From assembly GCA_001004105.1 (NCBI GenBank), contig LCQK01000003.1, positions 46,805 to 110,804 on the forward strand: DNA of 64,000 bases, in the 5' to 3' direction. A program made the translations under genes and the position numbers. The notes below the pieces were generated by a model that was not told where the DNA came from, searched no databases, and was given only the letters and a program-made list of their open reading frames with translations. Below are positions 8,238 to 63,587 of the stretch, in pieces; position 1 is the first letter of the stretch; every line of letters starts with the position of its first letter. The stretch is from Candidatus Jorgensenbacteria bacterium GW2011_GWB1_50_10. Its GTDB lineage: Bacteria; Patescibacteriota; Minisyncoccia; UBA6257; GWB1-50-10.

Positions 8238-9245
8238 TTGATGTTTGATGTAATCACCATCGGCACGGCAACACGGGATGTGTTTCTCACAAGCCCGTTT
8301 TTTAAGGTTTTGAAGGACCCGAAGCACTTGAAGCATATCGGTATGCCGATGGGTGAGGCGCAGTGCTTCGCTTTAGGCGCAAAAATTGAGGTGGAGCAAC
8401 CAATTTTAACGGTTGGCGGCGGCGCGGCGAACGCGGCCGTAACTTTCGCAAGACAAGGACTTAAAACCGGAGCGGTTATAGGCGTAGGCACGGACCCTAA
8501 CGGTGAGGCAGCGGTCAGAGAGCTTAAGAACGAAAAAATCAGGGTTTTCCCCGTTTACGACCCCAAGGACATGACCGGTTATTCGGTCATTCTTATCTCG
8601 TCAGGAGGGGAGCGCACCATTCTTCACTCTCGCGGCGCCTCGCGAGGAATAAAAGGCGGAGAATCAGTTTTCAAGAGAGTTAGAACCAAGTGGGTCTACG
8701 TGAGTCCGGGCGGGATACCCATTGCGGCGATGCAAAAGATTGTAATGCATTTCAAGGAAAGAGGGGCGAAAATCGCCATGAATCCCTCAAAGGATTATCT
8801 CGAAGCCGGAGCGGCAAAATTGAAGACGATTTTAAGGATTCTTGATGTTGTGATTGTAAACCGCGAGGAAGCGTCGTATCTGACAGGCGCCGACTATTCT
8901 GACCCGCGGCGGATTTTCAAAAAGTTTTCGGAGATGGTTGACGGCACTGCGGTAATGACCGACGGACCCAAAGGTTCTTACGTTGCCGACGAGGAGTATT
9001 TTTATCGGTCGGGAATATTCAAAGAAAAGAAACTGATTGACCGGACTGGGGCGGGTGACGCCTTTGGCTCGGGATTCGTCGCCGGTCTCATCCAGAAAAA
9101 AGATGTCTGGCGGGCTCTGCGCCTGGCGAACGCCAACGCCACTTCGGTCGTGGAAGCGGTGGGGGCGGAAGAGGGAATTTTGCGCAAAAAAGATTTAAGC
9201 GCCAAGCGCTGGCAATATCTGGACATGGATTTTGAAACACTATAA
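8238..9245 (+). CDS. PfkB-family carbohydrate kinase
   Basis: DVITIGTATRDVF N-terminus and the TGAGDAFGSGFVAG anion-hole motif. Confidence 0.85.
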   Translation: MMFDVITIGTATRDVFLTSPFFKVLKDPKHLKHIGMPMGEAQCFALGAKIEVEQPILTVGGGAANAAVTFARQGLKTGAVIGVGTDPNGEAAVRELKNEKIRVFPVYDPKDMTGYSVILISSGGERTILHSRGASRGIKGGESVFKRVRTKWVYVSPGGIPIAAMQKIVMHFKERGAKIAMNPSKDYLEAGAAKLKTILRILDVVIVNREEASYLTGADYSDPRRIFKKFSEMVDGTAVMTDGPKGSYVADEEYFYRSGIFKEKKLIDRTGAGDAFGSGFVAGLIQKKDVWRALRLANANATSVVEAVGAEEGILRKKDLSAKRWQYLDMDFETL

Positions 9246-10513
9246 TGCTAAACGATTCGAAAACAGCGGCGGAAAAAATAGCGAGGATTCTCCGGACCGA
9301 TAAGGATTTCATTGCGAAAATTGAAAGCCGGTTTTCGGCCGTGACCGGCAAGAAAAACGCTTTGGAAAAAATCGTTGAAGAGAATAGAAGCCGCATTAAG
9401 GACCGGCTTTTGACGCTTGGCGCTTCTTCCGAGGCGACGGCTCGTGAAATTTACAACGCCCTGATTTCAAAGATTGAAGCCGATGACAACATCATTTCTC
9501 GGGCGCTCGGCAACCTCGTCTGCTCCAAAAAAGAGGATTGCAACAAGGTTTTGGATATAGCGAGGAAAGTGATGAATTCCCAAAAAGGATTTTTTCTGAA
9601 AATCGACAAAGCACGGGAGTTTTTAATGAACGAGCCGCCAAAAAAAATTCTTTCTTTTTTGGGTTATGACTCGGTTCAAGACATGCTCCAAAAGGAAGAT
9701 TTATTGGAAGTTTATGCGGCCTTGAGGTTCATTGAAGGCAATGAATGGCTGAACAACGTTTTTTTCAAACAGTACGAAACTTTAACGCCGGCTGATTTCG
9801 AAGAGAGAGAAATTACTTTAAAGGCCCTGTCTCCCCGATGGGACCAAGCGGCCCAAACCTTTGTCGCGAAAAAACACCATAACATCAGTCACTTGAAGGA
9901 ATTGGGTTTGGTGTTTGTTATTCCCATTGCACTCGGCATCTCTGGGGAACTTCTGCGGATGTTAAGTTTGGTGCTTCATTACCTTCACGAAATCCCGTTT
10001 TATTCGGAAATGTTCCGGCGGATTGCCGAGACGCCGACCAATTTCTCCTTAAATTTTGTTTCTCTCTTGAGGGGTGATGTTTTTGACGGGCGGGTGCCCG
10101 AAGGCGAGAAATCGCTTTGGCTCGTCGTTCAAAGATACCTTGCCAAGGACGATGAAAACGACTGGCGGCTTTTTTATCCGCACATTAACCCCGAGGCCAT
10201 TCATTGGTACAAAGCTGAAAGAGATTTGGTGGAAATCGGCAACAAATTTAACCACTTCGGAACCGAAGTCGGTTTCTGGCACCATTTGGACTGGGTAGGC
10301 GATTATTTCAAAGACGAGGCCGGCGTGCCAGTCTTGGTGAGTTTCGACTTGGTGGATACGGTAATGTCTTTAGTCAAAGAGAAAGAAATGACAAAATACT
10401 TGTATCATCACCAAGAGGCGCTTTGGAACAAAATTTTCCGGGAATACTTCAGCCACGACGAGTTAGAAAAATACGCTAAGGATCATTTGTTGCAGGGATA
10501 CTTTGAAATTTAA
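9245..10513 (+). CDS. conserved-looking hypothetical protein (422 aa), no recognisable family
   Basis: Long ORF translationally coupled between the PfkB kinase and fba. I can name no motif in it. Confidence 0.6.
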   Translation: MLNDSKTAAEKIARILRTDKDFIAKIESRFSAVTGKKNALEKIVEENRSRIKDRLLTLGASSEATAREIYNALISKIEADDNIISRALGNLVCSKKEDCNKVLDIARKVMNSQKGFFLKIDKAREFLMNEPPKKILSFLGYDSVQDMLQKEDLLEVYAALRFIEGNEWLNNVFFKQYETLTPADFEEREITLKALSPRWDQAAQTFVAKKHHNISHLKELGLVFVIPIALGISGELLRMLSLVLHYLHEIPFYSEMFRRIAETPTNFSLNFVSLLRGDVFDGRVPEGEKSLWLVVQRYLAKDDENDWRLFYPHINPEAIHWYKAERDLVEIGNKFNHFGTEVGFWHHLDWVGDYFKDEAGVPVLVSFDLVDTVMSLVKEKEMTKYLYHHQEALWNKIFREYFSHDELEKYAKDHLLQGYFEI

Positions 10514-11411
10514 CATGAGAAGTTTACTGGAGATAATCCGGGAAACGGAAAAAGATAAGGTTGCAATAGGCCATTTCAATATTTCCAACCTGGAGCAGTT
10601 AAAGGCGATATCGCATGTCGCGGCGAAACTCAACGTACCGGTCATTATCGGCACATCGGAGGGCGAACGGGACTATATTGGTGTTCATCACGCCGTTGAT
10701 CTCGTCAAAAGTTACAACAAGGAGCACGCAAAAGGAAATTATCGGCTGTTTTTGAACGCCGACCACACCCATACTTTAGAGAACGCGAGGAAAGCGGCTG
10801 AAGTCGGTTATGACGCGATATTATTTGACGGCGGCAAACTGCCCCTTGAAGAAAATATCAGGGCTACGAAAGAAGTCGTAGAAATGGTGAGAAAAATCAA
10901 CAAAAACATCTTAGTTGAAGGTGAGCTGGGCTATATCGGTTCGTCTTCGGAAGTAAGGAAGGAAATTCCGGAAGGGGCGGCGATTAATCCCGGGGATTTG
11001 ACCAGACCGGAGGAAGCAGCGAGGTTCGTTGAAGAAACCGGCGTGGATATGCTTGCGCCGGCGGTGGGGAACATTCACGGCATGTTCGCGAACGCTCCGG
11101 AGCCGCGGCTTGATATAGAACGCATCCGGGAAATCAAGAAAGCGGTTGAAAACCTGCCTGCCGGCAGGCAGGTCCCGCTTGTTTTGCACGGCGCCTCCGG
11201 CAACACCGATGAAGATTTAAGTGTGGCAATCGATGCTGGAATTTCCATAATCCACATTTCCACCGAGCTTCGCGTTGCTTGGCGCAAGGGTTTGGAAGAA
11301 GCTTTGAAGGAGAATCCTGACGAAGTCGCGCCCTACAAGCTGATGCCCGAGGATTTGGCAGAAATGGAGAAAGTGGTGGAGAGAAAATTACGCCTCTTCA
11401 ATAAACTGTAA
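10503..11411 (+). CDS. fba: fructose-bisphosphate aldolase, class II
   Basis: GHFNISN, DHTH and PLVLHGASG motifs. The gene contains an in-frame copy of the 20-bp palindrome (ENLPAGRQVPLVLHG). Confidence 0.9.
   Translation: MKFNMRSLLEIIRETEKDKVAIGHFNISNLEQLKAISHVAAKLNVPVIIGTSEGERDYIGVHHAVDLVKSYNKEHAKGNYRLFLNADHTHTLENARKAAEVGYDAILFDGGKLPLEENIRATKEVVEMVRKINKNILVEGELGYIGSSSEVRKEIPEGAAINPGDLTRPEEAARFVEETGVDMLAPAVGNIHGMFANAPEPRLDIERIREIKKAVENLPAGRQVPLVLHGASGNTDEDLSVAIDAGISIIHISTELRVAWRKGLEEALKENPDEVAPYKLMPEDLAEMEKVVERKLRLFNKL
11153..11172. repeat. 20-bp perfect palindrome CCTGCCTGCCGGCAGGCAGG, copy 1 (inside fba, read as LPAGRQ)
   Basis: Exact 20-mer that equals its own reverse complement. One flanking base on each side (A/T) extends it to 22 bp. 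Confidence 0.95.
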
Positions 11412-11437
11412 GAAGCAAAAGATTAGAAATACGCTTA

Positions 11438-11453
11438 CTATGACATGTCATAG
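11438..11453. repeat. 16-bp perfect palindrome CTATGACATGTCATAG (left copy; 19-bp identity ACTATGACATGTCATAGCG)
   Basis: The identical 19-mer recurs at 11877-11895. The two copies bracket the TrpR-like gene. Confidence 0.9.
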
Positions 11454-11457
11454 CGCG

Positions 11458-11856
11458 TCAATAATGGTGCATGTAGACTTTTCCGTATTTAGTGCGGCGG
11501 TAGTATCTATAGGGTTTCTTTTTAGAAGGGTGACTGCTGTTGTATACTTTCTTTTTCCGCCCCGTTTTGCCTCGTTCCCGGTAGCTCCGATAACCACTCC
11601 CTTCCAGCGCTTTTTTGATACTGCTTACGGTCTGCGGCGAGAGATGGAGTTCCTCGACAATCTGCACGAATTTTTTCCCTGAATTCATGCGGTCTGCTAC
11701 CGCGGCGCGCATAACAAGATTATGACGTTCGTTGGAGGTGGTAAATAGTTCCAAGAGTTCTCTGGATTCTGATATCTTCTTCCAGCACGCTCTTTCCCAT
11801 TCCTTACGCGAAGAGTACTGGTTGGTTGGCGGCAACGATAATAAATTCCTGGTCAT
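11458..11856 (-). CDS. TrpR/YerC/YecD-like HTH protein with basic C-terminal tail
   Basis: The segment LFTTSNERHNLVMRAAVADRMNSGKKFVQIVEELHLSPQTVSSIKKALE resembles the Trp-repressor-like family. The C-terminus is lysine/arginine/tyrosine-rich. Confidence 0.6.
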   Translation of the reverse strand: MTRNLLSLPPTNQYSSRKEWERACWKKISESRELLELFTTSNERHNLVMRAAVADRMNSGKKFVQIVEELHLSPQTVSSIKKALEGSGYRSYRERGKTGRKKKVYNSSHPSKKKPYRYYRRTKYGKVYMHHY

Positions 11857-11877
11857 AAGGTAAGTTTAACATATCAC

Positions 11878-11893
11878 TATGACATGTCATAGC
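11878..11893. repeat. 16-bp perfect palindrome CTATGACATGTCATAG (right copy)
   Basis: Lies 22 bp upstream of the TrpR-like start codon and 52 bp upstream of the DGR target promoter -35 box. Confidence 0.9.
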
Positions 11894-11944
11894 GTTTTTA
11901 CTGGGTAGTCAGTTGTTTTGTTGCTCTATTCTCGCATATAAAAT

Positions 11945-11973
11945 TGACAAGCTTGTATAAATAGGGTATACTT
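11945..11973 (+). promoter_or_regulatory. sigma-70-type promoter of DGR target gene 1
   Basis: TTGACA (11945-11950), a 17-bp spacer, then TATACT (11968-11973). This is about 80 nt upstream of the ATG at 12054. Confidence 0.6.
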
Positions 11974-12053
11974 TAGGGCAGTACAATAATGGTGAGTCTG
12001 CGGGTCTGGTAAATGCCGGACTGGGGGACGAACCACAAAAAGAGAGGTACAAG

Positions 12054-12749
12054 ATGGCGAAAAAGACGGATGAACTGGTGCAGTTTGCGGGCCACTTCCA
12101 GTCGCTCGCGACTGCGGTTTCCCGCAACCTCGAAGAGCGCGGCGTAAACGTTGTTGAGGCAATCGCGGAGGCCGCAAAGCCGCAAGGCGCTCGGGCGGTC
12201 GCGAAGATCGTAGACGCGCTCGCCGAACTCGTTGAAAACGGCAAGCGGGTCGTCGGCGCTCTCAATCTCATCGTGGCCGACATCGCCGTGAAGACCGAAC
12301 TCTTCACAAAAAATTCGTTCTTCGGCGAGGGGAGCCCAGTAAAACTCTACATCTGGGATAACTTCCGGAACTGGGTACTCACGGCTATCCTTGAGAATAT
12401 ACCTGCGTTCCAGGGTATGCTCGTGAAGCACCAACTCACGAAGGGGATGTATGACTCGGAGATTCTCTCCGGACTCGGGCATCCCACGCCGTTCTCACCA
12501 ACCGAGTTCGCGGCTGTCATTCGCGACCTCATCTCCAAGCAATCGAGAGGCGAGGAGGGCCTTCTCCTCACGAACGGCTACGCCAACATCTTCTATGTAC
12601 AGTTGCCTGCCGGCGCAGGCGGGGAAGATGCACGCGTGGTCGCGGTGCGCGTGACCTGGAACGCCGGGGACGACGACTGGCACCTGGACGCCTACGGCTT
12701 GGACGACGACGGGTGGGGTGACGGTGTCTGCGTGTTCTCTCGCAGCTGA
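12054..12749 (+). CDS. DGR target (variable) protein 1, 231 aa, unassigned family
   Basis: GC-rich ORF whose last 37 codons are the VR. It has no signal peptide or TM segment, and an SD-like AGAGAGG lies upstream of the ATG. A paralog lies at 48342..48932. Confidence 0.85.
   Translation: MAKKTDELVQFAGHFQSLATAVSRNLEERGVNVVEAIAEAAKPQGARAVAKIVDALAELVENGKRVVGALNLIVADIAVKTELFTKNSFFGEGSPVKLYIWDNFRNWVLTAILENIPAFQGMLVKHQLTKGMYDSEILSGLGHPTPFSPTEFAAVIRDLISKQSRGEEGLLLTNGYANIFYVQLPAGAGGEDARVVAVRVTWNAGDDDWHLDAYGLDDDGWGDGVCVFSRS
12602..12623. repeat. decayed copy of the 20-bp palindrome (17/20 with a 2-nt insertion) inside target 1, read as LPAGAGG
   Basis: GTTGCCTGCCGGCGCAGGCGGG lies 9 bp upstream of the VR. 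The paralog has a 6-codon shorter segment at this point (PEDGP versus LPAGAGGEDAR). Confidence 0.6.
12632..12743 (+). repeat. DGR variable repeat VR1
   Basis: 112 bp with 99/112 identity to the TR. All 13 differences lie at TR adenines. Confidence 0.9.
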
Positions 12750-12782
12750 TCTCGGATTTTCGGTCTCTTGGCAATAGTAGTG

Positions 12783-12823
12783 CGCCCCGTTCGAGTTCTT
12801 CGGAACTTGGACGGGGCGTTTTT
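12783..12823 (+). terminator. hairpin with UUCG loop plus T5 downstream of VR1 (intrinsic terminator and/or DGR target-recognition hairpin)
   Basis: 16-bp stem (12783-12798 pairs with 12803-12818, two G-U pairs), loop TTCG, then TTTTT. It starts 40 nt after the end of the VR. Confidence 0.7.
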
Positions 12824-12831
12824 GTTATAAT
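12823..12831 (+). promoter_or_regulatory. extended -10 box TGTTATAAT, candidate promoter of the TR-containing RNA
   Basis: A perfect TGnTATAAT sits directly after the terminator and about 170 nt upstream of the TR. I saw no convincing -35 box. Confidence 0.45.
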
Positions 12832-12998
12832 AAAAATGAAATTTTTTGACATCACTGCGGTCAAGGCTTCAGTGGGAAGATTTCAAAAAACAGAAAGGTC
12901 AGCTGGTGTAGGGCGCTAACGGGTGCGAAAGACCCGGCATTAGATGCAACGCTTAGAGGAATCAAAGCGCAGTGGCAAGGGCGGCGCTTTACACGATA

Positions 12999-13110
12999 AC
13001 GCGTGGTCGCGGTGAACGTGAACTGGAACGCCGAGAACGACGACTGGAACCTGAACGCCAACGGCTTGGACGACGACAGGTGGAATGACGGTAACTGCGT
13101 GTTCTCTCGC
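12999..13110 (+). repeat. DGR template repeat (TR)
   Basis: Non-coding and rich in AAC codons in the VR frame (encodes ...VNVNWNAENDDWNLNANGLDDDRWNDGNCVFSR). It is the adenine-bearing partner of VR1. Confidence 0.9.
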
Positions 13111-13125
13111 CGCTTACCTTTTATA

Positions 13126-13470
13126 TCAGTTCTTTGGGAGCTGTTTTAGCCAACCGCCCAGCATTTTTCCAACTTCGTCAACTTTTCCAGAAAGCGCGGC
13201 GTATTTTTTCGTGTCCAGAGATTTGATTTGCCAGGCAATTTGGAGGAAAAATTTTAGTGAGTCAAGTTTAAAAGAGGAATTCCTGATTTTTGCAAACCGT
13301 TCGGCTGGCGTGAGAGGGGCGGCTGAGAAAATTTCTTCGATAATATCCAAGAAAAGCAAATCTACTTTTACGCCGAGAGTATAGCGCGAGGTTTTGGGAA
13401 AATGAGGCGCGAATTCTTGCCAAAGCGTGTAGGCCGCGATTAGTTTCTGAATAATTGGCAGTTCATTCCG
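13126..13470 (-). CDS. avd: Avd-like accessory variability determinant (four-helix-bundle / 23S-IVS protein family); start codon unresolved
   Basis: The reading frame encodes NELPIIQKLIAAYTLWQEFAPHFPKTSRYTLGVKVDLLFLDIIEEIF...KYAALSGKVDEVGKMLGGWLKQ, a typical Avd pattern. There is no in-frame ATG, GTG or TTG upstream of 13359. An ATG at 13519 is out of frame by one base across a G9 tract. Confidence 0.7.
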   Translation of the reverse strand, partial: RNELPIIQKLIAAYTLWQEFAPHFPKTSRYTLGVKVDLLFLDIIEEIFSAAPLTPAERFAKIRNSSFKLDSLKFFLQIAWQIKSLDTKKYAALSGKVDEVGKMLGGWLKQLPKN

Positions 13471-13472
13471 TC

Positions 13473-13481
13473 GGGGGGGGG
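13473..13481. repeat. homopolymeric G9 (C9 on the avd strand) tract
   Basis: Nine consecutive G, 18-26 nt upstream of the RT ATG and inside the 5' region of avd. Loss of one base would fuse the ATG at 13519 to the avd frame. Confidence 0.9.
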
Positions 13482-13498
13482 TTAGAGGACGGGAATTT

Positions 13499-14482
13499 AT
13501 GAAAATTCAATTGAGCCATAAATTCGAAGATATTATTTCACTGGAAAATCTTTTGGAAGCATGGCGAGAATTTTTGCGCGGCAAGAGAAATAAAAGAGAC
13601 GTTCAGGAATTCTCATCGCGTTTAATGGATAACATTCTATTACTTCACAGCGAACTTCGCAATAAAACCTACAAGCACGGGAAGTACGAAGCCTTTAACA
13701 TCTCCGACCCCAAACCGAGAAACATCCACAAAGCCGCCGTCCGCGACCGCCTACTTCATTACGCTATTTACAGGGTTTTATATCCGTTTTTTGATAAGGT
13801 ATTCATCGCCGATTCTTTTTCCTGCCGTTTGGGAAAAGGGACGCACAGAGCCATCAACCGCTTTAGAACTTTTGCTTATAAAGTGAGTAAAAATAATACC
13901 AAAACCTGCTGGGTTTTAAAGTTGGATATTAGGAAATTCTTCGCGAGTATTGACCATGAAATTTTGATAAAAATTCTTGAGGAATACATACCCGACCAAG
14001 ACATTATCTGGTTGCTGAAGAAAGTGATAGAAAGTTTTTATTCGACCGAACCCGGCAAGGGCCTGCCTTTAGGCAATTTAACCTCCCAGCTTTTAGTAAA
14101 TGTTTACATGAACAAGTTTGACCAATTTGTGAAACACAAGTTCAAGGCCAAGTATTACGTGAGATACGCCGATGATTTTGTGATTGTGTCGAAAAACGGA
14201 ATATGGCTTGAAAGTTTAATTCCGAGAATCAGCGAATTTCTAAACAGAGAATTGAAGTTAAAACTTCACGACGATAAGATATTCATTAAAACTTTAGCTT
14301 CGGGAGTAGATTTCCTTGGCTGGGTTCACTTTCCGGATTACCGAGTTCTGCGAACCACGACCAAAAGAAGAATGTTTAAAAGAATCAAAGAACATCCCGC
14401 GCCGGAAACAATAAATTCTTATTTGGGATTATTAAGGCACGGGAACGCTTATAAATTAAAAAGAAAAATTATTGCTGAATAA
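13499..14482 (+). CDS. DGR-type reverse transcriptase
   Basis: 327 aa. The N-terminus reads [20 protein letters not shown]. Motif 4 [20 protein letters not shown] carries the SQ typical of DGR RTs, and the catalytic motif is [11 protein letters not shown]. There is no maturase or endonuclease extension, and the gene is visibly AT-rich. Confidence 0.9.
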
Positions 14483-14498
14483 TTTTTTTTGTGTTTTA

Positions 14499-15242
14499 AT
14501 GGCGTTTATGGAAGCTAGTATTAGCAAGATAATTTTAGAGATTCGGGCGGGCACGGGCGGGGACGAGGCCTCGCTTTTTGCCGGCGATTTGGCGCGGATG
14601 TATCAGAGGTTTGCCGCCCGGCGGGGCTGGAAATTCTCGACGCTCGATGCGAGCGAGTCCGGCGCGCGCGGCTATAAGACGTTCATCGCGGAGATCGGCG
14701 GCCCGGGCGTCTACGAGGCATTGAAGAACGAATCCGGCGTGCACCGGGTGCAGAGAGTGCCGGATACCGAACGGGGCGGCCGGGTGCATACCTCAACCGT
14801 ATCGGTCGCGGTTTTACCCGTAGTGGAAACCAAGGATTTTCAAATTAAAGAAAGCGATTTGGAAGTGACTTTCTCCCGCGCCGGCGGTCCCGGCGGCCAG
14901 AACGTGAACAAAGTGGAAACTGCGGTTCGAATCACCCATAAACCCACCGGCGTTGTCGTAGGTTCCAGGGAAGAACGGAGCCAGCACGCCAATCGCGAGA
15001 AAGCGATGGAGGTCTTGCGGGCCAAGCTTTACGAGGCGCAGAAAGAACAGCAAGTGGGGTCGGTTGCGGAGTTGCGGAGAGGGCAGATCGGCTCGGCCGG
15101 ACGGGCGGAGAAGGTAAGGACATATAATTTTCCGCAGGATAGAATTACAGATCACAGAGTAAGTAAAAAATGGAGTAATATTGAAAAGATATTAGAAGGT
15201 AATCTTGACCCAATCATACAGGCATTTTTGAAAGTCAATTAA
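14499..15242 (+). CDS. prfA: class I peptide chain release factor (RF1-like, PxT-type) lacking the N-terminal domain
   Basis: [27 protein letters not shown] (P-x-T), GGPGGQNVN (GGQ) and [14 protein letters not shown] motifs. RF1 homologs have about 100 more N-terminal residues. The start at ATG 14499 is inferred; the ORF track uses TTG 14472. Confidence 0.8.
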
Positions 15243-15248
15243 AAAATC

Positions 15249-15268
15249 CCTGCCTGCCGGCAGGCAGG
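15249..15268. repeat. 20-bp palindrome, copy 2 (junction between prfA stop and the displaced prfA 3' remnant)
   Basis: Exact CCTGCCTGCCGGCAGGCAGG, 6 nt after the prfA stop codon. Confidence 0.95.
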
Positions 15269-15379
15269 CGCACCTATAATTTTCCGCAGGACAGGATAAC
15301 CGACCACCGTCAGGGCAAAAAGGTTTCAAATATTCTGAAAGTTCTCGACGGCGATTTGGACAAACTAACCGGCCGTTAA
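15269..15379 (+). pseudogene. displaced original 3' end of prfA (36 codons plus stop, out of frame with prfA)
   Basis: Encodes [36 protein letters not shown]. It shares the 17-mer TATAATTTTCCGCAGGA with 15123-15139 and is GC-rich like the prfA core. Confidence 0.75.
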
Positions 15380-16870
15380 AATTTCTATATCCTTTTGGAA
15401 TTGCTGGGCTTTCACGACCACCGGTTCGCCGTAAGCCCAGCGGTAGTAATACCACCGGCCACCGGCGTAGTATCTTGCCGCGGCGCAGCGTTCGGCAAGG
15501 ACTTGGGCATCGGCGATGTTTCTGTTTTCGCTCACGTAATTCCGGCAAGCGCTGGAATTCAGGGCGTCTTTGAGATACAAGGAAGTCGCAACGAAAGCGT
15601 CGGCGTTTGACCAGGGATTGGAAGGAGTTTGGCCGGTGATTTTCCCAATATAATCCTTGCTTTGGTTATACTCCCAGGAACTGCCGTTTTTCTCCCAACC
15701 GCCGTAGATGGCCCAGGTTGAGGGAATGAATTGGGCCGGGCCCATGGCGCCGCCGTAGGCGCCGTCTCTGTTGGCACAGGAAACCTTCGCCACGGTTGAA
15801 TTCGGGTCAATGCCGAGCTTGGAAAGAATGGCGAGGAAAATCGGAACGTCGCGGGTGGGGTGCATGGCGCCCTGGTAGCTGCAGCGGCCGACGTTTTTCC
15901 CCAGAAGAGATTCTTGCTGAAGAATGGCGAGAAGAAAAGCGGCCCGGACCCCGGTTGCGCCTTCGGCAAGGCGGGCGTATTTATAGGCCTCTTCAAAAGT
16001 GAGTTCGCCGCCTCCCAAAAGACGGAAAATTCTGCTTCTTATTTGAGCGGCAGTGGCTTGGGTTTCTTTCAGGATTTTTTGGTATTCGGATTCTTTGCCT
16101 TTGGTTACGGTCAGAAGCTGATTTTTTTCCGCTTGGGTCGTCGCGACGCTCTTTTTTTGCGATTCCTGATAATTCTTGAGATTTTCCACGTCGGATTTTT
16201 CCGCGGCGAGCTCCTGTTTTTGCTCAAGCAATTCCACCCGAAGGGCGACAACTTCGTTTAAGGCCGTCCGGATGTTGGACTGAACCAGGGTTATGTTGTT
16301 GACGTCACCGAAGAAATCCGAAAGATTGGCATTGGCCAGCAACACCTCGATCAAGCTTTGGGCGTCGGCTTCATAGAGGTCGCGGACGCCTCTCGCAAGG
16401 GCCGTTTTATGGCCGTCAATTCTGTTTTCGGTAACGTTTATGTTCTTTTGAGTGCTCGTTATTTCGTCGTCCAATTTCTGGAGATTCAGGTTGACCGCTT
16501 TAATTTGGAGGTTCAACTGGCTGATTTTGGCGTTCAGGGATTTTATTTCGTTAGTGAGGGTTTTGCCCTGTTTTTGATATTCGGCAACCGTACTTTGATG
16601 TTCAAGGATTTGGCGCTCCAATTCGGCAAGTTCGTTTTCAAGTTTCTCCCGTTCTTCCTGGCTGGTCGCGCCGTTTTCCGTGCCCGTCATCTCGGCTGCC
16701 TGGGTCGGAGTGTTCAGTTTGGTTCCGAGAAGAAGCCCCGAAAAAGCGAGGAGAACCAAAACTCCTCCTACGAATTTGATTGATTTGGTAAGAGGGATCC
16801 GGATAGCGGTCGAATAGGAGAGATTGAGACGTCTTTTACGGCTGGCCTTAATATCGTAGATTTTGCGCAT
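15365..16870 (-). CDS. membrane-anchored coiled-coil protein with C-terminal lytic-transglycosylase-like domain
   Basis: N-terminal TM segment and a long heptad-like region ([16 protein letters not shown]...). The C-terminal part has [12 protein letters not shown] and [13 protein letters not shown], which are SLT/MltB-like motifs. Confidence 0.7.
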
Positions 16871-16979: not shown

Positions 16980-17669
16980 TTATTTTTTCTTCTCTTCTTC
17001 CTTGGGCGGTGTTTCTTTTTTCTCCGGCTCCGCTGCCTGCCTGCCGGTAGGCATGGCTTTCGCTTCGGTTTCGGCCGGAGCGGCCGGTGTTTCGGCTATC
17101 GGAGGCGGCGCAACAACTTCCTCCTTCACTTTTTCGGTTACGGTCGCAATCACGGTTTCCTCCGGCGCGAGAATTTTTACTTCGGAAGGCGCGCGCAGGT
17201 CGCTAACGTGGATGCTGTCGCCCATTTTCTCCAGCTTGCCCAAATCAACCTGAAAGGAGTGGGGGATTTTGTCGGGTAGGGATTTGACTTCAATTTCGTG
17301 CAGCACCCGGACGATCACCAAACCGGCTTTTTCCGCCGGAGCGGTGCCTGTGAATTCCACCGGCACTTTTGTTTCAATCGCCTCATCCATTTTAATTTGA
17401 TGGAAATTCACCGAAAGCGTTTTTCTGGTCAGGGGATGTTCCTGAACCTCGGAAATTAAGATTGGAATTTTTCCGCCCTTCTCGTTTATCAAATAAACGA
17501 CGGTGTGGCTGCCGGCTTTGCGGTAGACTTTAACGAAATCGTTTTCCGAAACGGCAAGGTGCTGGTTTAGAACGCCGCTCCCGAAAAGTTCGGCCGGAAC
17601 CAAACCCGCCCTCCGGAGGGATTTCACTTTTTTCCCCAAAATTTCCCTTGTTTTGACTGCGAGTTCCAT
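16980..17669 (-). CDS. rplY: 50S ribosomal protein L25/Ctc with low-complexity C-terminal tail
   Basis: GKKVKSLRRAGLVPAELFG N-terminus and the two-domain Ctc form. The Glu/Lys/Pro-rich tail contains a decayed palindrome copy. Confidence 0.85.
   Translation of the reverse strand: MELAVKTREILGKKVKSLRRAGLVPAELFGSGVLNQHLAVSENDFVKVYRKAGSHTVVYLINEKGGKIPILISEVQEHPLTRKTLSVNFHQIKMDEAIETKVPVEFTGTAPAEKAGLVIVRVLHEIEVKSLPDKIPHSFQVDLGKLEKMGDSIHVSDLRAPSEVKILAPEETVIATVTEKVKEEVVAPPPIAETPAAPAETEAKAMPTGRQAAEPEKKETPPKEEEKKK
17036..17055. repeat. decayed copy (18/20) of the 20-bp palindrome inside the rplY tail (MPTGRQA)
   Basis: CCTGCCTGCCGGTAGGCATG, with two substitutions relative to the consensus. Confidence 0.7.
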
Positions 17670-17912: not shown

Positions 17913-17932
17913 CCTGCCTGCCGGCAGGCAGG
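17913..17932. repeat. 20-bp palindrome, copy 3 (12 nt upstream of rpmE start codon)
   Basis: Exact 20-mer. On the rpmE strand its 3' end together with the next base reads AGGGAG, 9 nt before the ATG. Confidence 0.95.
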
Positions 17933-51588: not shown

Positions 51589-52814
51589 AAAAACTTCACG
51601 CCAAAATGCCAGATTCGCCGGGCGTCTACTTAATGAAAAACGCTCGCGGCCGGATTCTTTATATCGGCAAGGCGGCAAATTTAAAAAGGCGGGTTTCCAG
51701 TTATTTTTTGCGTCCCGCACGCCTGCCTGCCGGCAGGCAGGATTCGCGAATTGAAAAAATGGTGAGCGAGGTGCGCAAGATTGATTACAAAAAAACCGAC
51801 ACTGCTTTGGAAGCACTAATTTTGGAGGCGACTCTTATTAAAAAACACGAACCGCCCTATAACGTCAGAGAAAAAGACGACAAGAGCTTCCTTTACGTGG
51901 AAATAACGAAAGATAAATTCCCGCGAGTGCTTTTGGTGCGCGGCCGTGCCTACCGGCAGGCAGGCAAAAGCCGGGCGGGAGGGGATAGATTTGGACCGTT
52001 TACTTCTGCTTCAAGTGCGCGGGAGGCGCTCCGCATCATCCGCAAAATTTTTCCGTTCAGCGTCCATCCGGCGGATAAAATCGGCAAATTCAAGAAACCC
52101 TGTTTTGACTACGAAATTGGTCTTTGTCCGGGTACTTGCGCCGGTCTTATAGATAAGACCGATTATCTGAAGAACGTCAGAAACATCAAACTGCTTTTCC
52201 AAGGCAAGAAAGCGGCCATATTGAGGACGCTAAAACGGGAAATGGAAGCGGCGAGCAAGCGGCTGGACTTCGAAAAAGCCGCCAAATTACGGGGCCGGAT
52301 TTTCGCGCTGGAGCACGTGCAGGACGTGGCGCTCATCAAGAGCGAGGAAGACAGCGGTACGGAAAACAAGGCAAGAATTGAAGGATACGACATTTCCGAT
52401 ATTTCCGGGACATCGGCCGTGGGAGCGATGGTTGTTTTTCGCGGCGGCAGACCGGCACCGAATGAATACCGGAAGTTCAAAATCGGCACGGTTTTTAAAC
52501 CGAACGATACTGCAATGTTGAAAGAAGTGATTGGCCGGCGTTTGAACCATCGGGAATGGCCGCTGCCCGATTTATTCCTGATTGACGGCGGCAAGCCGCA
52601 GGTGAACGCCGCAAAAAAGATTCTCAGAGATTCCGGTTTCGTGATTCCGGTCGTGGGCATCGCCAAGGGCGCGAAACGAAAGAAAAACGAATTCATTGGT
52701 TCTATACCCTACAACCTATCACCTATAACCTTGATTAAGGTTCGCAACGAAGCCCACCGTTTCGCCCAAAGTTACCACAAAAGGTTAAGGAAAATAATCT
52801 CACTAGGTTTGTAA
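51585..52814 (+). CDS. uvrC: excinuclease ABC subunit C (short form, 409 aa)
   Basis: GIY-YIG N-terminus (GVYLMKNARGRILYIGKAANLKRRVSSYF), a UVR domain (DFEKAAKLRGRIFALE) and an RNase H-like endonuclease region. It carries one perfect and one decayed palindrome copy in-frame. I did not see a C-terminal (HhH)2 region. Confidence 0.88.
   Translation: MKKLHAKMPDSPGVYLMKNARGRILYIGKAANLKRRVSSYFLRPARLPAGRQDSRIEKMVSEVRKIDYKKTDTALEALILEATLIKKHEPPYNVREKDDKSFLYVEITKDKFPRVLLVRGRAYRQAGKSRAGGDRFGPFTSASSAREALRIIRKIFPFSVHPADKIGKFKKPCFDYEIGLCPGTCAGLIDKTDYLKNVRNIKLLFQGKKAAILRTLKREMEAASKRLDFEKAAKLRGRIFALEHVQDVALIKSEEDSGTENKARIEGYDISDISGTSAVGAMVVFRGGRPAPNEYRKFKIGTVFKPNDTAMLKEVIGRRLNHREWPLPDLFLIDGGKPQVNAAKKILRDSGFVIPVVGIAKGAKRKKNEFIGSIPYNLSPITLIKVRNEAHRFAQSYHKRLRKIISLGL
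51722..51741. repeat. 20-bp palindrome, copy 4 (inside uvrC, RLPAGRQD)
   Basis: Exact 20-mer within a loop of the GIY-YIG domain. Confidence 0.95.
51945..51964. repeat. decayed palindrome copy (18/20) inside uvrC (RAYRQAGK)
   Basis: CGTGCCTACCGGCAGGCAGG. Confidence 0.7.
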
Positions 52815-62105: not shown

Positions 62106-63587
62106 ATGCCTAAGCCTGGAAAAATACAAATAATCCGTTATGCGCCGCCGCCGCCGGACCTGCCGGTCTACGGCCGCATTGACCCGAAAGACGTTTCTTT
62201 CATCGGCCGGACCAATTACGTGGCGGCCCTGGAAGAGAAAAAATTCATCTTCGGTATCAAGCGCCACGACCGGAGGCGGCACCTTTACGTCATCGGCAAA
62301 AGCGGTGTCGGCAAGTCCAAGGCGCTGGAGCTTTTAATCCGGCAGGATATTGCTTTCGGGCACGGCCTTTGCCTCATTGACCCGCACGGCGACGTGATTG
62401 AGGCGACTTTGGATTTTGTGCCGCAAAGCCGCGTGGAGGACGTGGTGATTATTGACCCGTCGGATTCGGAGCATCCAGTTTCTTTTAATCCTCTTCAGAA
62501 TGTTGACCCGTTTTTCAAACATCAGCTGACTCAAGGGCTGATTGAGGTGATGGAGAAGCAGTTCGGCGCAAACTGGACGCCGCGCCTGGAGCATGTTTTC
62601 CGTTTCACTTGCCTTGCTCTTTTGGATTATCCTCACGGCACGATGCGGGGGATGATTTCCATGCTCACCGACCGCAATTACCGGCAAAAAGTCATTGAAT
62701 ACATCGGCGACGATATGGTCAAGCGTTTCTGGGCCATTGAATTCGCCGACTGGTCGGAGAAATTCGACACCGACGCTATCATCCCGCTCGTGAACAAGCT
62801 CGGCCAGTTCCTTTCCGACCCGATGCTCCGGAATATCTTCGGCCAGAAAGAAAATAAGATTGATTTGGAAGAACTGATGAACAAAAAGAAAATTATTTTG
62901 ATTAACCTTTCTAAGGGCCGGCTCGGCGAGGAAAATTCCAGTTTTTTCGGCTCCATGTTCATCACCAAAATCAAACAGGCGGGCATGGCCCGGGCTAAGA
63001 TACCCGAGTCGGCGCGGCACGATTTTTATCTTTATGTTGACGAGTTTCAGAACGTTGTGACTGAAACTTTCGAAAATTTGCTGACCGAAGCGAGAAAATA
63101 CGGTCTTTGCATGACTATTGCCCATCAGTACCTAGGTCAGCTTCTGCCGAAAGTGAAAGCCGCAGTTTTGGGCAATGTCGGCAGCCTGATTGTTTTCCGG
63201 GTTGGCGGTGAGGACGCGGAGACGCTGGAGCCAGAAATGGCGCCACTTTTCAAAAACAAAGACATGATTAACCTCGGCATGCAGGAGTTTTACATCAAAA
63301 TGATAATCGACGGCGAGTCCTACGACCCGTTCTCGGCGGAAACCTTGAAAATATTGCCCTCACCCCACGGTTCGCTCAAAAAGGAAATCATCGAGGCCTC
63401 GCGCCGGAAATATTCCATTCCCGCCGATGCCGCCAAAAAACTCATTGAAGAAGAAGAGTCAACGATTATCAGGAGCGCCCAGGAAAAAGCCATTATTACC
63501 GGCGGCAAGGATAAAAAAGACCTGCCTGCCGGCAGGCAGGAAAGTGAAGAAAGCGACGCCGCCAAAATGGAAGAGCCACTCATATAG
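62106..63587 (+). CDS. TraD/VirD4-like P-loop ATPase (stand-alone version of the C-terminal half of ORF 29728..32076)
   Basis: RRHLYVIGKSGVGKSKALE (Walker A), LYVDEFQNV (Walker B), AHQYLGQL and GNVGSLIVFRVGGEDAE. The C-terminal tail carries palindrome copy 5. Confidence 0.78.
   Translation: MPKPGKIQIIRYAPPPPDLPVYGRIDPKDVSFIGRTNYVAALEEKKFIFGIKRHDRRRHLYVIGKSGVGKSKALELLIRQDIAFGHGLCLIDPHGDVIEATLDFVPQSRVEDVVIIDPSDSEHPVSFNPLQNVDPFFKHQLTQGLIEVMEKQFGANWTPRLEHVFRFTCLALLDYPHGTMRGMISMLTDRNYRQKVIEYIGDDMVKRFWAIEFADWSEKFDTDAIIPLVNKLGQFLSDPMLRNIFGQKENKIDLEELMNKKKIILINLSKGRLGEENSSFFGSMFITKIKQAGMARAKIPESARHDFYLYVDEFQNVVTETFENLLTEARKYGLCMTIAHQYLGQLLPKVKAAVLGNVGSLIVFRVGGEDAETLEPEMAPLFKNKDMINLGMQEFYIKMIIDGESYDPFSAETLKILPSPHGSLKKEIIEASRRKYSIPADAAKKLIEEEESTIIRSAQEKAIITGGKDKKDLPAGRQESEESDAAKMEEPLI
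63521..63540. repeat. 20-bp palindrome, copy 5 (inside ATPase tail, DLPAGRQE)
   Basis: Exact 20-mer. Confidence 0.95.

What the first reader, a model, noticed from the sequence alone, without database searches (positions are those of the whole stretch)
11437..11895. TrpR/YerC-like regulator bracketed by two identical 19-bp palindromic sites next to the DGR target promoter
ACTATGACATGTCATAGCG occurs at 11437-11455 and again at 11877-11895, with a perfect 16-bp palindrome CTATGACATGTCATAG as its core. The two copies bracket the 132-aa TrpR-like gene (11458..11856, minus strand).

The right copy lies in the divergent intergenic region, 22 bp upstream of the regulator start and 52 bp upstream of the -35 box of the DGR target gene. 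The left copy abuts the regulator stop codon.

There are two readings:
- The sites are operators for the dimeric HTH protein, giving autoregulation and possibly control of the DGR target.
- The sites are the termini of a small inserted cassette.

A dedicated transcription factor wired to a DGR target would be unusual.
Basis: inference. Interest (0 to 1): 0.5.

Follow-up and report, generated by a model that had tools for sequence, protein, structure and literature searches.

The report
Self-bracketed TrpR-like repressor, not DGR-specific
The two identical palindromes are the binding sites of the small TrpR-like repressor they flank, an arrangement shared by about 50 relatives in Patescibacteria, and the neighbouring DGR is a separate module that arrived beside them rather than their dedicated target.

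Summary
**Observation:** real. A motif model (PWM) trained on other genomes finds no third site in the 64 kb.

**What it is:** the cognate operators of an undescribed, Paceibacteria-restricted family of TrpR/YerC-like proteins.
- Of 52 homologous loci, 46 have an upstream palindrome of type YRTG-N6-CAYR, 47 a downstream one, and 42 both.
- The upstream site sits at a fixed distance from an extended -10 (TGnTAnnnT). It covers about -35 to -22 of the regulator's own promoter, which points to autorepression.
- Protein residues 42 and 93 co-vary with the central bases of the site.
- The motif layout matches the validated HisR (YerC) operator.

**The downstream copy:** a family-wide trait, present even between convergent genes. 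It lies at no promoter and is not a canonical terminator. Its role (looping or roadblock) is inferred.

**DGR link:** not supported.
- A collinear relative (L030) has fba-site-regulator-site-prfA with no DGR.
- Homologous DGRs elsewhere lack both regulator and sites and carry their own promoter.

**Cassette-termini reading:** not supported.

**Unexplained:** related genomes hold orphan, mosaic and arrayed copies, and a minority have hairpin-capable outer arms.

The parts
11876..11894 (.). Upstream operator: 19-mer with the 16-bp perfect palindrome CTATGACATGTCATAG at 11877-11892. It occupies about -35 to -22 of the regulator's promoter.
   Evidence: PWM 32.5 bits. Homologues have an equivalent site within 400 bp upstream in 46 of 52 loci. 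On the gene side, TGnTAnnnT starts 9-10 nt after the 14-mer core in 56% of loci, and TAnnnT in 75%, against 4% or less for other site classes.
11863..11871 (-). Extended -10 element TGtTAAACT of the regulator promoter. The hexamer TAAACT is at 11868-11863 and begins exactly 9 nt after the palindrome core.
   Evidence: Promoter scan (ATGACA-16-TAAACT with a TG). The same ATATGTTAAACTTA occurs upstream of the two paralogues of the same genome. Family-wide register.
11458..11856 (-). TrpR/YerC-like HTH regulator (132-aa ORF; probable true start TTG at 11835, giving 125 aa). It has a helical core at residues 17-84, a basic linker YRSYRERGKTGRKKK, and a conserved C-terminal beta-hairpin RTKYGKVY.
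   Evidence: Pfam Trp_repressor 24.6 bits, below the cut-off of 27. TIGR02531 18.8 bits against a cut-off of 42.2. At least 179 homologues, all Patescibacteria. Alignment A1. AF2 model with pLDDT 77. Top fold hits are TrpR/YerC structures, but weak. Profile against PDB gives 3kor at E=2.6e-4.
11437..11455 (.). Downstream copy of the same operator, 2 nt after the regulator's stop codon and 26 nt after the stop of the convergent fba gene. It lies at no promoter and is not a canonical terminator.
   Evidence: PWM 31.4 bits. Homologues have a site within 200 bp downstream in 47 of 52 loci. Of 14 loci with a convergent downstream neighbour of at least 150 aa, 13 have the site. No T-tract follows it. 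No -10 element at the fixed register.
11944..14482 (+). Adjacent but separate module: the DGR cassette. It comprises its own promoter TTGACA-17-TATACT at 11944-11972, the target gene at 12054-12749 with VR at 12632-12747, a hairpin plus T-tract at 12782-12819, TR at 12999-13114, Avd at 13126-13359 on the minus strand, and RT at 13499-14482.
   Evidence: The cassette is absent from the collinear relative L030. A homologous DGR in L174 has the same promoter type but no regulator and no sites.

Best explanation
The two palindromes are the cognate DNA-binding sites of the TrpR/YerC-like protein encoded between them. That protein belongs to an undescribed family restricted to Paceibacteria-type Patescibacteria.

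**Upstream site (shown by comparative evidence).** It sits at about -35 to -22 of the gene's own extended -10 promoter. A bound dimer would therefore exclude RNA polymerase, giving negative autoregulation.

**Downstream site.** It is shown to be a conserved second, equally strong operator that belongs to the gene unit itself. It does not belong to a neighbouring promoter. By inference, it either cooperates with the upstream site through a loop of about 440-590 bp that encloses the gene, or it acts as a bound roadblock insulating the small gene from convergent or read-through transcription.

**Paralogues.** Genomes carry two or three paralogues, each bracketed by its own variant of the palindrome. 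Residues 42 and 93 track the central bases of the site.

**DGR.** The DGR beside the window's copy is an independent cassette with its own promoter. It lies in the regulator-prfA intergenic region in this lineage. The regulator is not a dedicated DGR factor.
For: **(1) Conserved architecture.**
- Of 52 non-redundant homologous loci, 46 have an upstream YRTG-N6-CAYR palindrome, 47 a downstream one, and 42 both.
- In 34 of those 42 the central hexamer is the same on both sides.
- Only 26 sites occur in the remaining 388 kb.

**(2) Fixed promoter register.** TGnTAnnnT starts 9-10 nt after the core on the gene side of upstream sites in 56% of loci, and TAnnnT in 75%. The figure is 4% or less for downstream sites, orphan sites and the gene-distal side. 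The window has TGtTAAACT at exactly +9.

**(3) Specificity co-variation in 62 regulators.**
- Residue 42 is N with ACA-type sites, Y with ACG and H with CTA (MI 1.02 of 1.55 bits).
- Residue 93 is R in 35 of 35 ACA/ACG cases and L in 15 of 17 CTA cases.
- Overall identity within types (0.55) barely exceeds that between types (0.52).

**(4) Same-genome paralogues.** They obey the code and differ even at the first flank base: C...G, G...C and A...T.

**(5) Precedent.** HisR (YerC, TrpR family) binds cacTTTA-N6-TAAAgtg, was validated in vitro, and about half of hisR genes are autoregulated (PMC9413887). The consensus here is rGyrC-TATG-N6-CATA-GyrCy.

**(6) Protein.** Profile and fold searches put TrpR/YerC structures first.

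**(7) Downstream site independent of neighbour orientation.** It is present in 13 of 14 loci whose downstream gene converges.

**(8) DGR independence.** Shown by L030 and L174-L177. The window has no further site.
Against: - No binding experiment exists.
- Pfam and NCBIfam scores for this protein are below their curated cut-offs, and fold matches are weak (E 0.5-1).
- Up-down spacing shows no convincing helical phasing (Rayleigh p=0.013 at a 10.0-bp period, 0.46 at 10.5). Looping is therefore unproven, and a roadblock role is pure inference.
- Orphan copies in related metagenome contigs are rare in divergent intergenic regions: 2 observed against about 9.5 expected, with 20 in convergent regions. 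That is not what a simple promoter-operator regulon predicts.
- A quarter to a third of sites have complementary outer arms beyond the likely protein footprint. This model does not explain them.
- DGR parts abut regulator homologues in three other independent loci (L003, L018, L051). Some non-random association with DGRs is therefore not excluded.
Confidence: 0.7

Rival explanations
1. The palindromes are primarily dispersed, hairpin-capable repeat elements of these genomes, analogous to REP/BIME. They mark gene boundaries and act as RNA or DNA hairpins, or as protein-bound bidirectional roadblocks and terminators. The TrpR-like proteins are their dedicated binding factors, and the site at the regulator's own promoter is one special use.
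For: - The exact 16-mer occurs in at least 119 metagenome stretches, and only 23-27 of 151 sites lie near a family member.
- 128 of 151 sites are intergenic.
- Orphan-site contexts are tandem 63, convergent 20 and divergent 2, against 60.7, 14.8 and 9.5 expected from intergenic base pairs.
- There are mosaics of two to four palindrome types abutting at an 18-bp period, and arrays of six to eight copies.
- Among sites already symmetric to offset 5, outer-arm complementarity of at least 3 further bp occurs in 27-35%, against 2-3% in a shuffled-partner control.
- Another gene, nitroreductase-like, is bracketed by site pairs in L139, L142 and L159.
Against: - In this window there are only the two copies in 64 kb, and their hairpins are weak (-4.6 to -11.3 kcal/mol).
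- The estimated density elsewhere, about 1 site per 15 kb, is far below that of REPs.
- The centre of the site is itself palindromic and co-varies with protein residues. That indicates recognition of double-stranded DNA by a symmetric dimer.
- No T-tracts follow the sites.
- The protein has no catalytic domain and no fusions.
- Some long arms are symmetric divergent -10 boxes (L030, L021).
- Extension of palindromes by template-switch 'correction' of quasipalindromes is a known mutational bias (own knowledge). It could produce the arms without any selection.
Confidence: 0.17
2. The regulator is functionally wired to the DGR. It controls the target gene, or the DGR as a whole, through the site in the shared divergent intergenic region.
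For: - DGR components abut regulator homologues in independent, distantly related loci: L003 (the regulator lies between Avd/TR and RT), L018 (just after the RT) and L051 (36% identity, directly upstream of target-VR-TR-RT).
- Target-like genes lie beside sites in L032, L049 and L151.
- In about 450 kb of genome loci, the only RT hits found by tblastn are adjacent to the regulator.
Against: - L030 has the regulator and its sites at the same position with no DGR.
- None of four target-homologue loci has the regulator or a site, including L174 with a complete DGR of the same architecture. The target's promoter travels with the cassette.
- The window's site centre is about 95 bp upstream of the predicted target transcription start, and no site lies near TR, Avd or RT.
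- The enrichment statistic is post hoc.
- L003 and L018 have homologous DGRs but different regulator types at different positions.
Confidence: 0.08
3. The two direct copies are the termini of a small mobile or inserted cassette that carries the regulator gene.
For: - There is a 19-bp identical direct repeat at both gene ends.
- The site-gene-site unit occurs as several paralogues per genome in non-syntenic places.
- Homologous DGRs in L003 and L018 have the unit at different positions.
- There are weak HTH similarities to the N-termini of IS630-type transposases.
Against: - The unit is vertically conserved at the same place in L030 (regulator 54%, flanking genes 52-78% identity), while the DGR and orf422 are the indels.
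- There is no presence/absence polymorphism of the unit, no target-site duplication, and no recombinase or transposase domain or fusion among about 280 family clusters.
- Viral contigs contain no copies.
- One 'terminus' is an integral part of the promoter.
Confidence: 0.05

Closest known systems
HisR (YerC) and TrpR, the TrpR family of ligand-dependent repressors
   Same: A small all-helical HTH protein. The best sequence and fold matches are TrpR/YerC structures. The palindromic operator of about 20 bp has the same layout as the HisR motif: cacTTTA-N6-TAAAgtg against cacTATG-N6-CATAgtg here. Autoregulation through a site in the gene's own promoter is frequent (PMC9413887).
   Different: - Scores are below the curated family cut-offs.
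- There is an extra conserved basic linker and a C-terminal beta-hairpin, and linker residue 93 tracks site type.
- There is a second operator directly after the stop codon in about 90% of members.
- Genomes carry two or three orthogonal paralogues.
- There is no link to amino-acid biosynthesis genes, and the ligand is unknown.
Repressors with auxiliary operators that bracket or lie inside their operon (lambda CI OL/OR, lac O1/O2/O3, gal OE/OI)
   Same: Identical high-affinity sites lie a few hundred bp apart, one at the promoter and one beyond or inside the transcription unit. In those systems the sites cooperate by DNA looping (own knowledge).
   Different: Oligomerisation beyond a dimer is untested here, and no clear helical phasing was found. 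The distal site lies immediately after the regulator's own stop codon.
REP/BIME elements with their RAYT genes
   Same: The gene is flanked by the very palindromes its product is thought to bind. Each paralogue has its own palindrome class. Orphan copies, mosaics of different classes and clusters lie in intergenic DNA, mostly not between divergent genes.
   Different: The protein is an HTH with no HUH/Y1 nuclease domain. Copy number is low, at 2 in this 64-kb window. The palindromes are perfect through the centre. Mobility is not shown.
IS-encoded end-binding repressors (for example IS1 InsA)
   Same: A small HTH protein whose binding sites flank its own gene, with one site overlapping its promoter (own knowledge).
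   Different: There is no transposase partner, no terminal inverted repeats distinct from the palindromes, no target duplications, and the position is vertically conserved.

Membership tests
TrpR family (Pfam PF01371 Trp_repressor) | Sequence match above the curated gathering score | tested here: not met
   24.6 bits against a cut-off of 27 for the window protein. Many homologues do carry a precomputed PF01371 hit, and the family profile finds the TrpR-like structure 3kor at E=2.6e-4.
TrpR family | TrpR-like helical fold (an intertwined dimer of helix bundles with helix-turn-helix D-E) | tested here: inconclusive
   The AF2 monomer (pLDDT 77) has five helices. The top Foldseek PDB hits are 3kor, 3frw, 1trr, 1tro and 3g1c, but with E 0.5-1 and TM 0.35-0.46. 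The dimer was not modelled.
TrpR family | Binds a palindromic operator of about 18-20 bp as a dimer | tested here: met
   This is indirect evidence only. A conserved palindrome of about 24 bp lies at the promoter of 46 of 52 members, protein residues co-vary with site type, and the layout matches the HisR motif. No binding assay has been done.
TrpR family | Amino-acid co-repressor (Trp or His) and control of the matching biosynthesis or uptake genes | tested here: not met
   No trp or his genes lie among the neighbours. The recurrent neighbours are a Cys-rich ~590-aa protein, pilin-like LamG proteins and housekeeping genes. Ligand binding itself cannot be tested with these tools.
YerC/YecD (NCBIfam TIGR02531) | Score above the curated cut-off | tested here: not met
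   18.8 bits against a cut-off of 42.2.
DGR accessory gene | Consistent co-occurrence with the DGR RT/TR/VR across relatives | tested here: not met
   The collinear L030 has the regulator without a DGR. L174 has the same DGR type without the regulator or sites. Only about 4 of about 52 regulator loci hold a DGR.
REP/RAYT | HUH/Y1 transposase-like protein flanked by REPs | tested here: not met
   Only HTH-type matches were found. All of about 280 family clusters are proteins of 55-226 aa without additional domains.
REP/RAYT | Many dispersed extragenic copies per genome | tested here: inconclusive
   The window has 2 copies in 64 kb. Related contigs show orphan copies, mosaics and arrays. No complete genome could be scanned.
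Insertion sequence, MITE or mobile cassette | Transposase or recombinase, terminal repeats with target duplication, and presence/absence polymorphism | tested here: not met
   No catalytic domain was found. The position is conserved in L030, while the DGR is the indel. Viral contigs contain none.
Intrinsic (Rho-independent) terminator | GC-rich hairpin followed by a T-tract | tested here: not met
   No terminator call falls in 11300-12200. Downstream sites in 47 loci lack a T-tract. Hairpin energies in the window are -4.6 to -11.3 kcal/mol.

The most novel reading that the evidence does not exclude
Orthogonal TrpR-like paralogues and their hairpin-capable palindromes form a Paceibacteria-wide system that punctuates gene boundaries. 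The protein-bound, orientation-free sites would act as roadblocks, insulators or terminators. They occur singly, as 18-bp-period mosaics of different types, and in arrays. Each regulator gene is enclosed by its own sites. The same sites would mark regions where DGR and surface-protein cassettes (Cys-rich proteins, pilin-like proteins) preferentially land or are retained.
Probability: 0.15. Interest if true: 0.75.

Novelty: new variant of a known kind. Interest (0 to 1): 0.45.

Why it matters
Almost nothing is known about transcriptional control in Patescibacteria (CPR). Literature searches found no description of this family or its sites.

This work provides four things:
- a lineage-specific transcription-factor family with a clear operator;
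- a promoter model (an extended -10 with the operator in place of a -35);
- a candidate recognition code at residues 42 and 93;
- recurrent candidate targets, the Cys-rich ~590-aa proteins.

All of these can be tested directly with purified proteins from uncultivated organisms.

The work also corrects an attractive but wrong idea. The regulator is not a dedicated DGR factor, and the DGR is a self-contained cassette with its own promoter.

The family-wide second operator after the stop codon, and the mosaic, arrayed and hairpin-capable orphan copies, are unusual. If they prove to be boundary elements, that would be of wider interest.

Tried and rejected
- **Small peptide genes in the palindrome arrays (L034/L141, L001).** Translation on both strands gave no consistent ORFs. 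The arrays look like tandem duplications of non-coding, operator-bearing units.
- **Helical phasing of up-down spacing as evidence for looping.** Not convincing.
- **Downstream site as an intrinsic terminator.** No T-tracts, and weak hairpins in the window.
- **Known RNA families.** No Rfam match in 10400-15400 at E<=1.
- **Phage origin.** The 16-mer is absent from viral contigs.
- **Transposase relationship.** An exhaustive profile search found only small stand-alone proteins.
- **Hidden divergent paralogues beside orphan sites.** A family HMM run over all ORFs left 70 sites orphan.
- **Extra weak sites near DGR parts in the window.** None found.
- **My first inference of hairpin selection.** It rested on within-site symmetry exceeding between-site agreement. 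It is weakened for flank offsets 1-5, because flank bases proved paralogue-specific. A shuffled-partner control still supports extra complementarity beyond offset 5 in a minority of sites.
- **Footprinting with L052.** That relative is too close to be informative.
- **Exact DGR indel boundaries against L030.** They could only be bracketed, at roughly 11925-11950 on the left and 14469 on the right.
Full report
**1. Observation**

The 19-mer ACTATGACATGTCATAGCG occurs at 11437-11455 and at 11876-11894. Its core, CTATGACATGTCATAG, is a perfect 16-bp palindrome. Even allowing 3 mismatches it is found only twice in the window, against 0.08 expected from shuffles.

The copies flank the ORF 11458..11856 on the minus strand. 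The left copy ends 2 nt before the stop codon. The right copy lies 19 nt from the ATG.

The more likely start is the TTG at 11835. It is preceded by AGGAA and is the start used by an independent gene call of the identical protein.

The DGR next door is real.
- VR is at 12632-12747 and TR at 12999-13114, and 13 of 14 mismatches fall at TR adenines.
- An Avd lies on the minus strand.
- The RT is at 13499-14482.

The target protein is 100% identical to UY26_C0003G0267 of Candidatus Jorgensenbacteria bacterium GW2011_GWA1_48.

**2. The protein**

The protein scores below the curated cut-offs: Pfam Trp_repressor 24.6 bits against 27, and TIGR02531 YerC/YecD 18.8 bits against 42.2.

It has at least 179 close homologues, all from Patescibacteria: Jorgensen-, Wolfe-, Lipton- and Brennerbacteria and 'Paceibacterota'. 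An exhaustive profile search of 1.84 billion representatives finds about 280 clusters. All are stand-alone proteins of 55-226 aa with no fused domains.

The alignment shows three conserved parts:
- a helical core;
- a basic segment, YRSYRERGKTERKKK;
- an invariant C-terminal RTKYG motif, which the AF2 model (pLDDT 77) folds as a beta-hairpin.

TrpR/YerC-type structures are the best fold and profile matches. The profile gives 3kor at E=2.6e-4. The Foldseek hits are only weakly significant.

I therefore call the protein TrpR-like without asserting family membership.

**3. The site-gene-site layout is a property of the whole family**

I fetched 51 genome loci and three further contigs that encode homologues of 31-100% identity. 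Nearly all are bracketed by perfect palindromes of one family, (C/T)TATG-N6-CATA(G/A). The central hexamers are palindromic: ACATGT, ACGCGT, CTATAG, ATGCAT, ATATAT or CCATGG.

Counting sites with at most one mismatch in 52 non-redundant loci:

| Site position | Loci |
|---|---|
| Within 400 bp upstream | 46 |
| Within 200 bp downstream of the stop | 47 |
| Both | 42 |
| Both, sharing the same hexamer | 34 of the 42 |

The remaining 388 kb of those loci hold only 26 sites.

The consensus over 118 perfect-core sites is rGyrC-TATG-N6-CATA-GyrCy, about 24 bp.

**4. The upstream site is a promoter operator**

On the gene-proximal side of upstream sites, an extended -10 element TGnTAnnnT begins 9-10 nt after the 14-mer core in 56% of loci. 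A plain TAnnnT does so in 75%. The same register is found in 4% or less of downstream sites, orphan sites and gene-distal flanks.

The palindrome therefore occupies about -35 to -22 of an extended -10 promoter. The window fits exactly:
- TGtTAAACT lies at 11871-11863.
- Its hexamer starts 9 nt after the core.
- The predicted transcription start is near 11856.
- The RBS is AGGAA.
- The start codon is the TTG at 11835.

A protein bound there would block RNA polymerase. That this is autorepression is an inference from position. The positional conservation itself is shown.

**5. Evidence that the encoded protein is what binds**

*(a) Co-variation.* Among 62 non-redundant regulators, two residues track the site type.
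- Residue 42 (TS-x-ER) is N with ACA(TGT) sites, Y with ACG(CGT) and H with CTA(TAG). MI is 1.02 of a possible 1.55 bits.
- Residue 93 (YRSY-x-ER) is R in 35 of 35 ACA/ACG cases and L in 15 of 17 CTA cases.
- Overall identity within types (0.55) hardly exceeds that between types (0.52).

*(b) Paralogues of the same genome.* Each is bracketed by its own variant.

| Regulator | Residue 42 | Bracketing site |
|---|---|---|
| Window protein | N | CTATGACATGTCATAG |
| P0013 | N | GTATGACATGTCATAC |
| P0004 | Y | ATATGACGCGTCATAT |

*(c) Precedent.* HisR (YerC), a validated member of the TrpR family, binds cacTTTA-N6-TAAAgtg. About half of hisR genes are autoregulated (PMC9413887). The layout is the same as here.

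**6. The downstream site**

It belongs to the gene unit and not to a neighbouring promoter.
- It is present in 13 of 14 loci where the downstream gene (at least 150 aa) converges on the regulator, as fba does in the window.
- It has no -10 element at the fixed register.
- No T-tract follows it.
- In the window it folds weakly, at -11.3 kcal/mol.
- Centre-to-centre spacing to the upstream site is 432-621 bp in all but two of 47 loci, which reach 774 and 778, and 439 bp in the window. Helical phasing is not convincing.

Its function is therefore inferred, not shown. The two candidates are cooperative looping with the promoter operator, as with auxiliary operators of lac, gal or lambda CI (own knowledge), or a bound roadblock that insulates a 0.4-kb gene from convergent or read-through transcription.

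In some loci the downstream site doubles as the 5' site of the next gene. It lies 4-60 nt before the start codon of a Cys-rich ~590-aa protein in L004, L008, L068, L086 and L178.

**7. The DGR is not the regulator's business**

*The collinear relative.* L030, a Jorgensenbacteria MAG, is collinear with the window over at least seven genes: L31, L25, orf501, prfA (78% identity), regulator (54%), fba (60%) and sugar kinase (52%). It lacks the whole DGR, and it lacks orf422.

There the palindrome lies between the divergent prfA and regulator genes, as a 42-bp perfect palindrome that includes TGcTATAAT on the regulator side. Alignment places the DGR indel between roughly 11925-11950 and 14469. The RT's last codons overlap the conserved prfA leader.

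*The reverse test.* Four homologues of the target gene on long contigs have no regulator and no family palindrome. L174 among them has a complete DGR of the same architecture, target-Avd(-)-RT. Each carries its own TTGACA-17-TATAAT promoter, like the window's TTGACA-17-TATACT at 11944-11972.

In the window no further site exists near the TR, Avd or RT. The existing site is centred about 95 bp upstream of the predicted target transcription start.

*A caveat.* DGR parts do abut regulator homologues in three other independent loci.
- In L003 the regulator lies between Avd/TR and the RT.
- In L018 it lies just after the RT.
- In L051 it lies directly upstream of target-VR-TR-RT.

Target-like genes also lie beside sites in L032, L049 and L151.

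L003 and L018 have homologous DGRs (RTs 67% identical) but different regulator types at different positions. That looks like repeated juxtaposition, not co-inheritance. The enrichment is post hoc, and I treat it as unexplained.

**8. Not cassette termini**

The unit is vertically conserved while its neighbours come and go. There is no recombinase or transposase, no fusion, no copy in viral contigs, and no presence/absence polymorphism of the unit. One 'terminus' is part of the promoter.

**9. What remains odd**

- Some hits in high-GC contigs are probably chance.
- Many sit in low-GC, Patescibacteria-like contigs that hold several family sites.
- Only 23-27 of 151 sites are near a family member, even by HMM.
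- 128 of 151 are intergenic.
- After de-duplication, orphan sites lie in tandem (63) or convergent (20) intergenic regions and rarely in divergent ones: 2 observed against about 9.5 expected from base pairs.

*Mosaics, brackets and arrays.*
- Different palindrome types abut at an exact 18-bp period in L139, L065, L111, L158, L171, L055, L168 and L173.
- A nitroreductase-like gene is bracketed by such pairs.
- Arrays of 5-8 copies occur in non-coding DNA and contain no consistent small ORFs.

*Outer arms.* Beyond flank offset 5, the arms remain complementary for at least 3 further bp in 27-35% of sites, against 2-3% in a shuffled-partner control. A few cases are symmetric divergent -10 boxes (L030, L021). 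Most are not.

This could reflect hairpin or cruciform function. It could also reflect the known tendency of quasipalindromes to be 'corrected' by template switching (own knowledge).

None of this is visible in the window itself, where the regulator appears to have only its two sites within 64 kb.

**10. Verdict**

- The operator and autoregulation reading is supported. It can be generalised to an undescribed Patescibacteria family with a conserved second operator after the stop codon and an apparent recognition code.
- The DGR-control and cassette readings are not supported.
- Literature searches found no prior description.
- I rate it a new variant of a known kind, an autoregulated palindrome-binding HTH repressor, of moderate interest. 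There is a minority chance (about 0.15) that the sites are boundary elements of a more unusual, REP/BIME-like or roadblock type.

Noticed in passing
window 11153-11172, 15249-15268, 17036-17055, 17913-17932, 51722-51741, 51945-51964, 63521-63540: A second, unrelated GC-rich 20-bp palindrome, CCTGCCTGCCGGCAGGCAGG, occurs 7 times (5 copies perfect; 0 expected by chance). Some copies lie inside coding regions: in fba it encodes LPAGRQ, and one lies in L25. Others are followed by T-runs like terminators. It also occurs in L015 and L053.
   Followed up: partly
window 12782-12819: A strong 17-bp GC-rich hairpin followed by TTTTT starts 33 nt after the stop of the DGR target gene and its VR. It could be the target's terminator, or the hairpin/cruciform that some DGRs need for target recognition.
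   Followed up: no
window 9245-10513 and 11944-14482, compared with L030: Relative to the collinear Jorgensenbacteria MAG L030, the window has two insertions or deletions: orf422 (no Pfam or NCBIfam match) between the sugar kinase and fba, and the whole DGR. The RT stop codon (14480-14482) overlaps the conserved leader of prfA. The prfA product lacks the N-terminal domain of RF1 in both genomes.
   Followed up: partly
L178 5449-8991; L065 1890-5640; L009 886-2664; L004, L008, L022, L068, L086, L089, L114, L131: A family of Cys-rich ~590-aa proteins has an N-terminal CQNCK...FYxKIxVPPPTxCPxCR motif and no Pfam or NCBIfam match. It recurs beside the palindromes, often with a site 4-60 nt before the start codon, sometimes in tandem copies separated by sites and sometimes with no regulator nearby. 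It is the best candidate for a regulon member.
   Followed up: partly
L139 4629-4660 and 5384-5415; L065 1850-1881 and 3688-3719; L111 3754-3785; L158 2109-2140; L171 3620-3651; L055, L168, L173: Heterotypic mosaics. Palindromes of different central types (CTATAG, ACATGT, ACGCGT, ATGAAT) abut at an exact 18-bp period, with up to four in a row. In L139, L142 and L159 such pairs bracket a nitroreductase-like gene.
   Followed up: partly
L034 800-2160 (the same region as L141); L076 420-1033; L001 350-1290; L010 2563-4317; L093 50-352: Arrays of 5-8 palindromes at irregular spacings of 84-195 bp lie in AT-rich non-coding DNA, partly as longer repeat units. No consistent small ORFs were found.
   Followed up: partly
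L003 1917-6541 and L018 1360-5390: Two homologous DGRs (RTs 67% identical, targets 56%) have targets with a type IV pilin-like N-terminus, shared with the LamG pilin-like genes that flank other regulators. They carry different regulator and site types at different positions: between TR and RT in L003, and after the RT in L018.
   Followed up: partly
L174 3300-3500, L176 3300-3500: Upstream of homologues of the DGR target gene there is a conserved promoter (cCTTGACA-N17-TATAAT) and a conserved leader containing the hairpin AAAGAGCC...GGCTCTTT. The window's leader (11980-12053) does not obviously share it.
   Followed up: no
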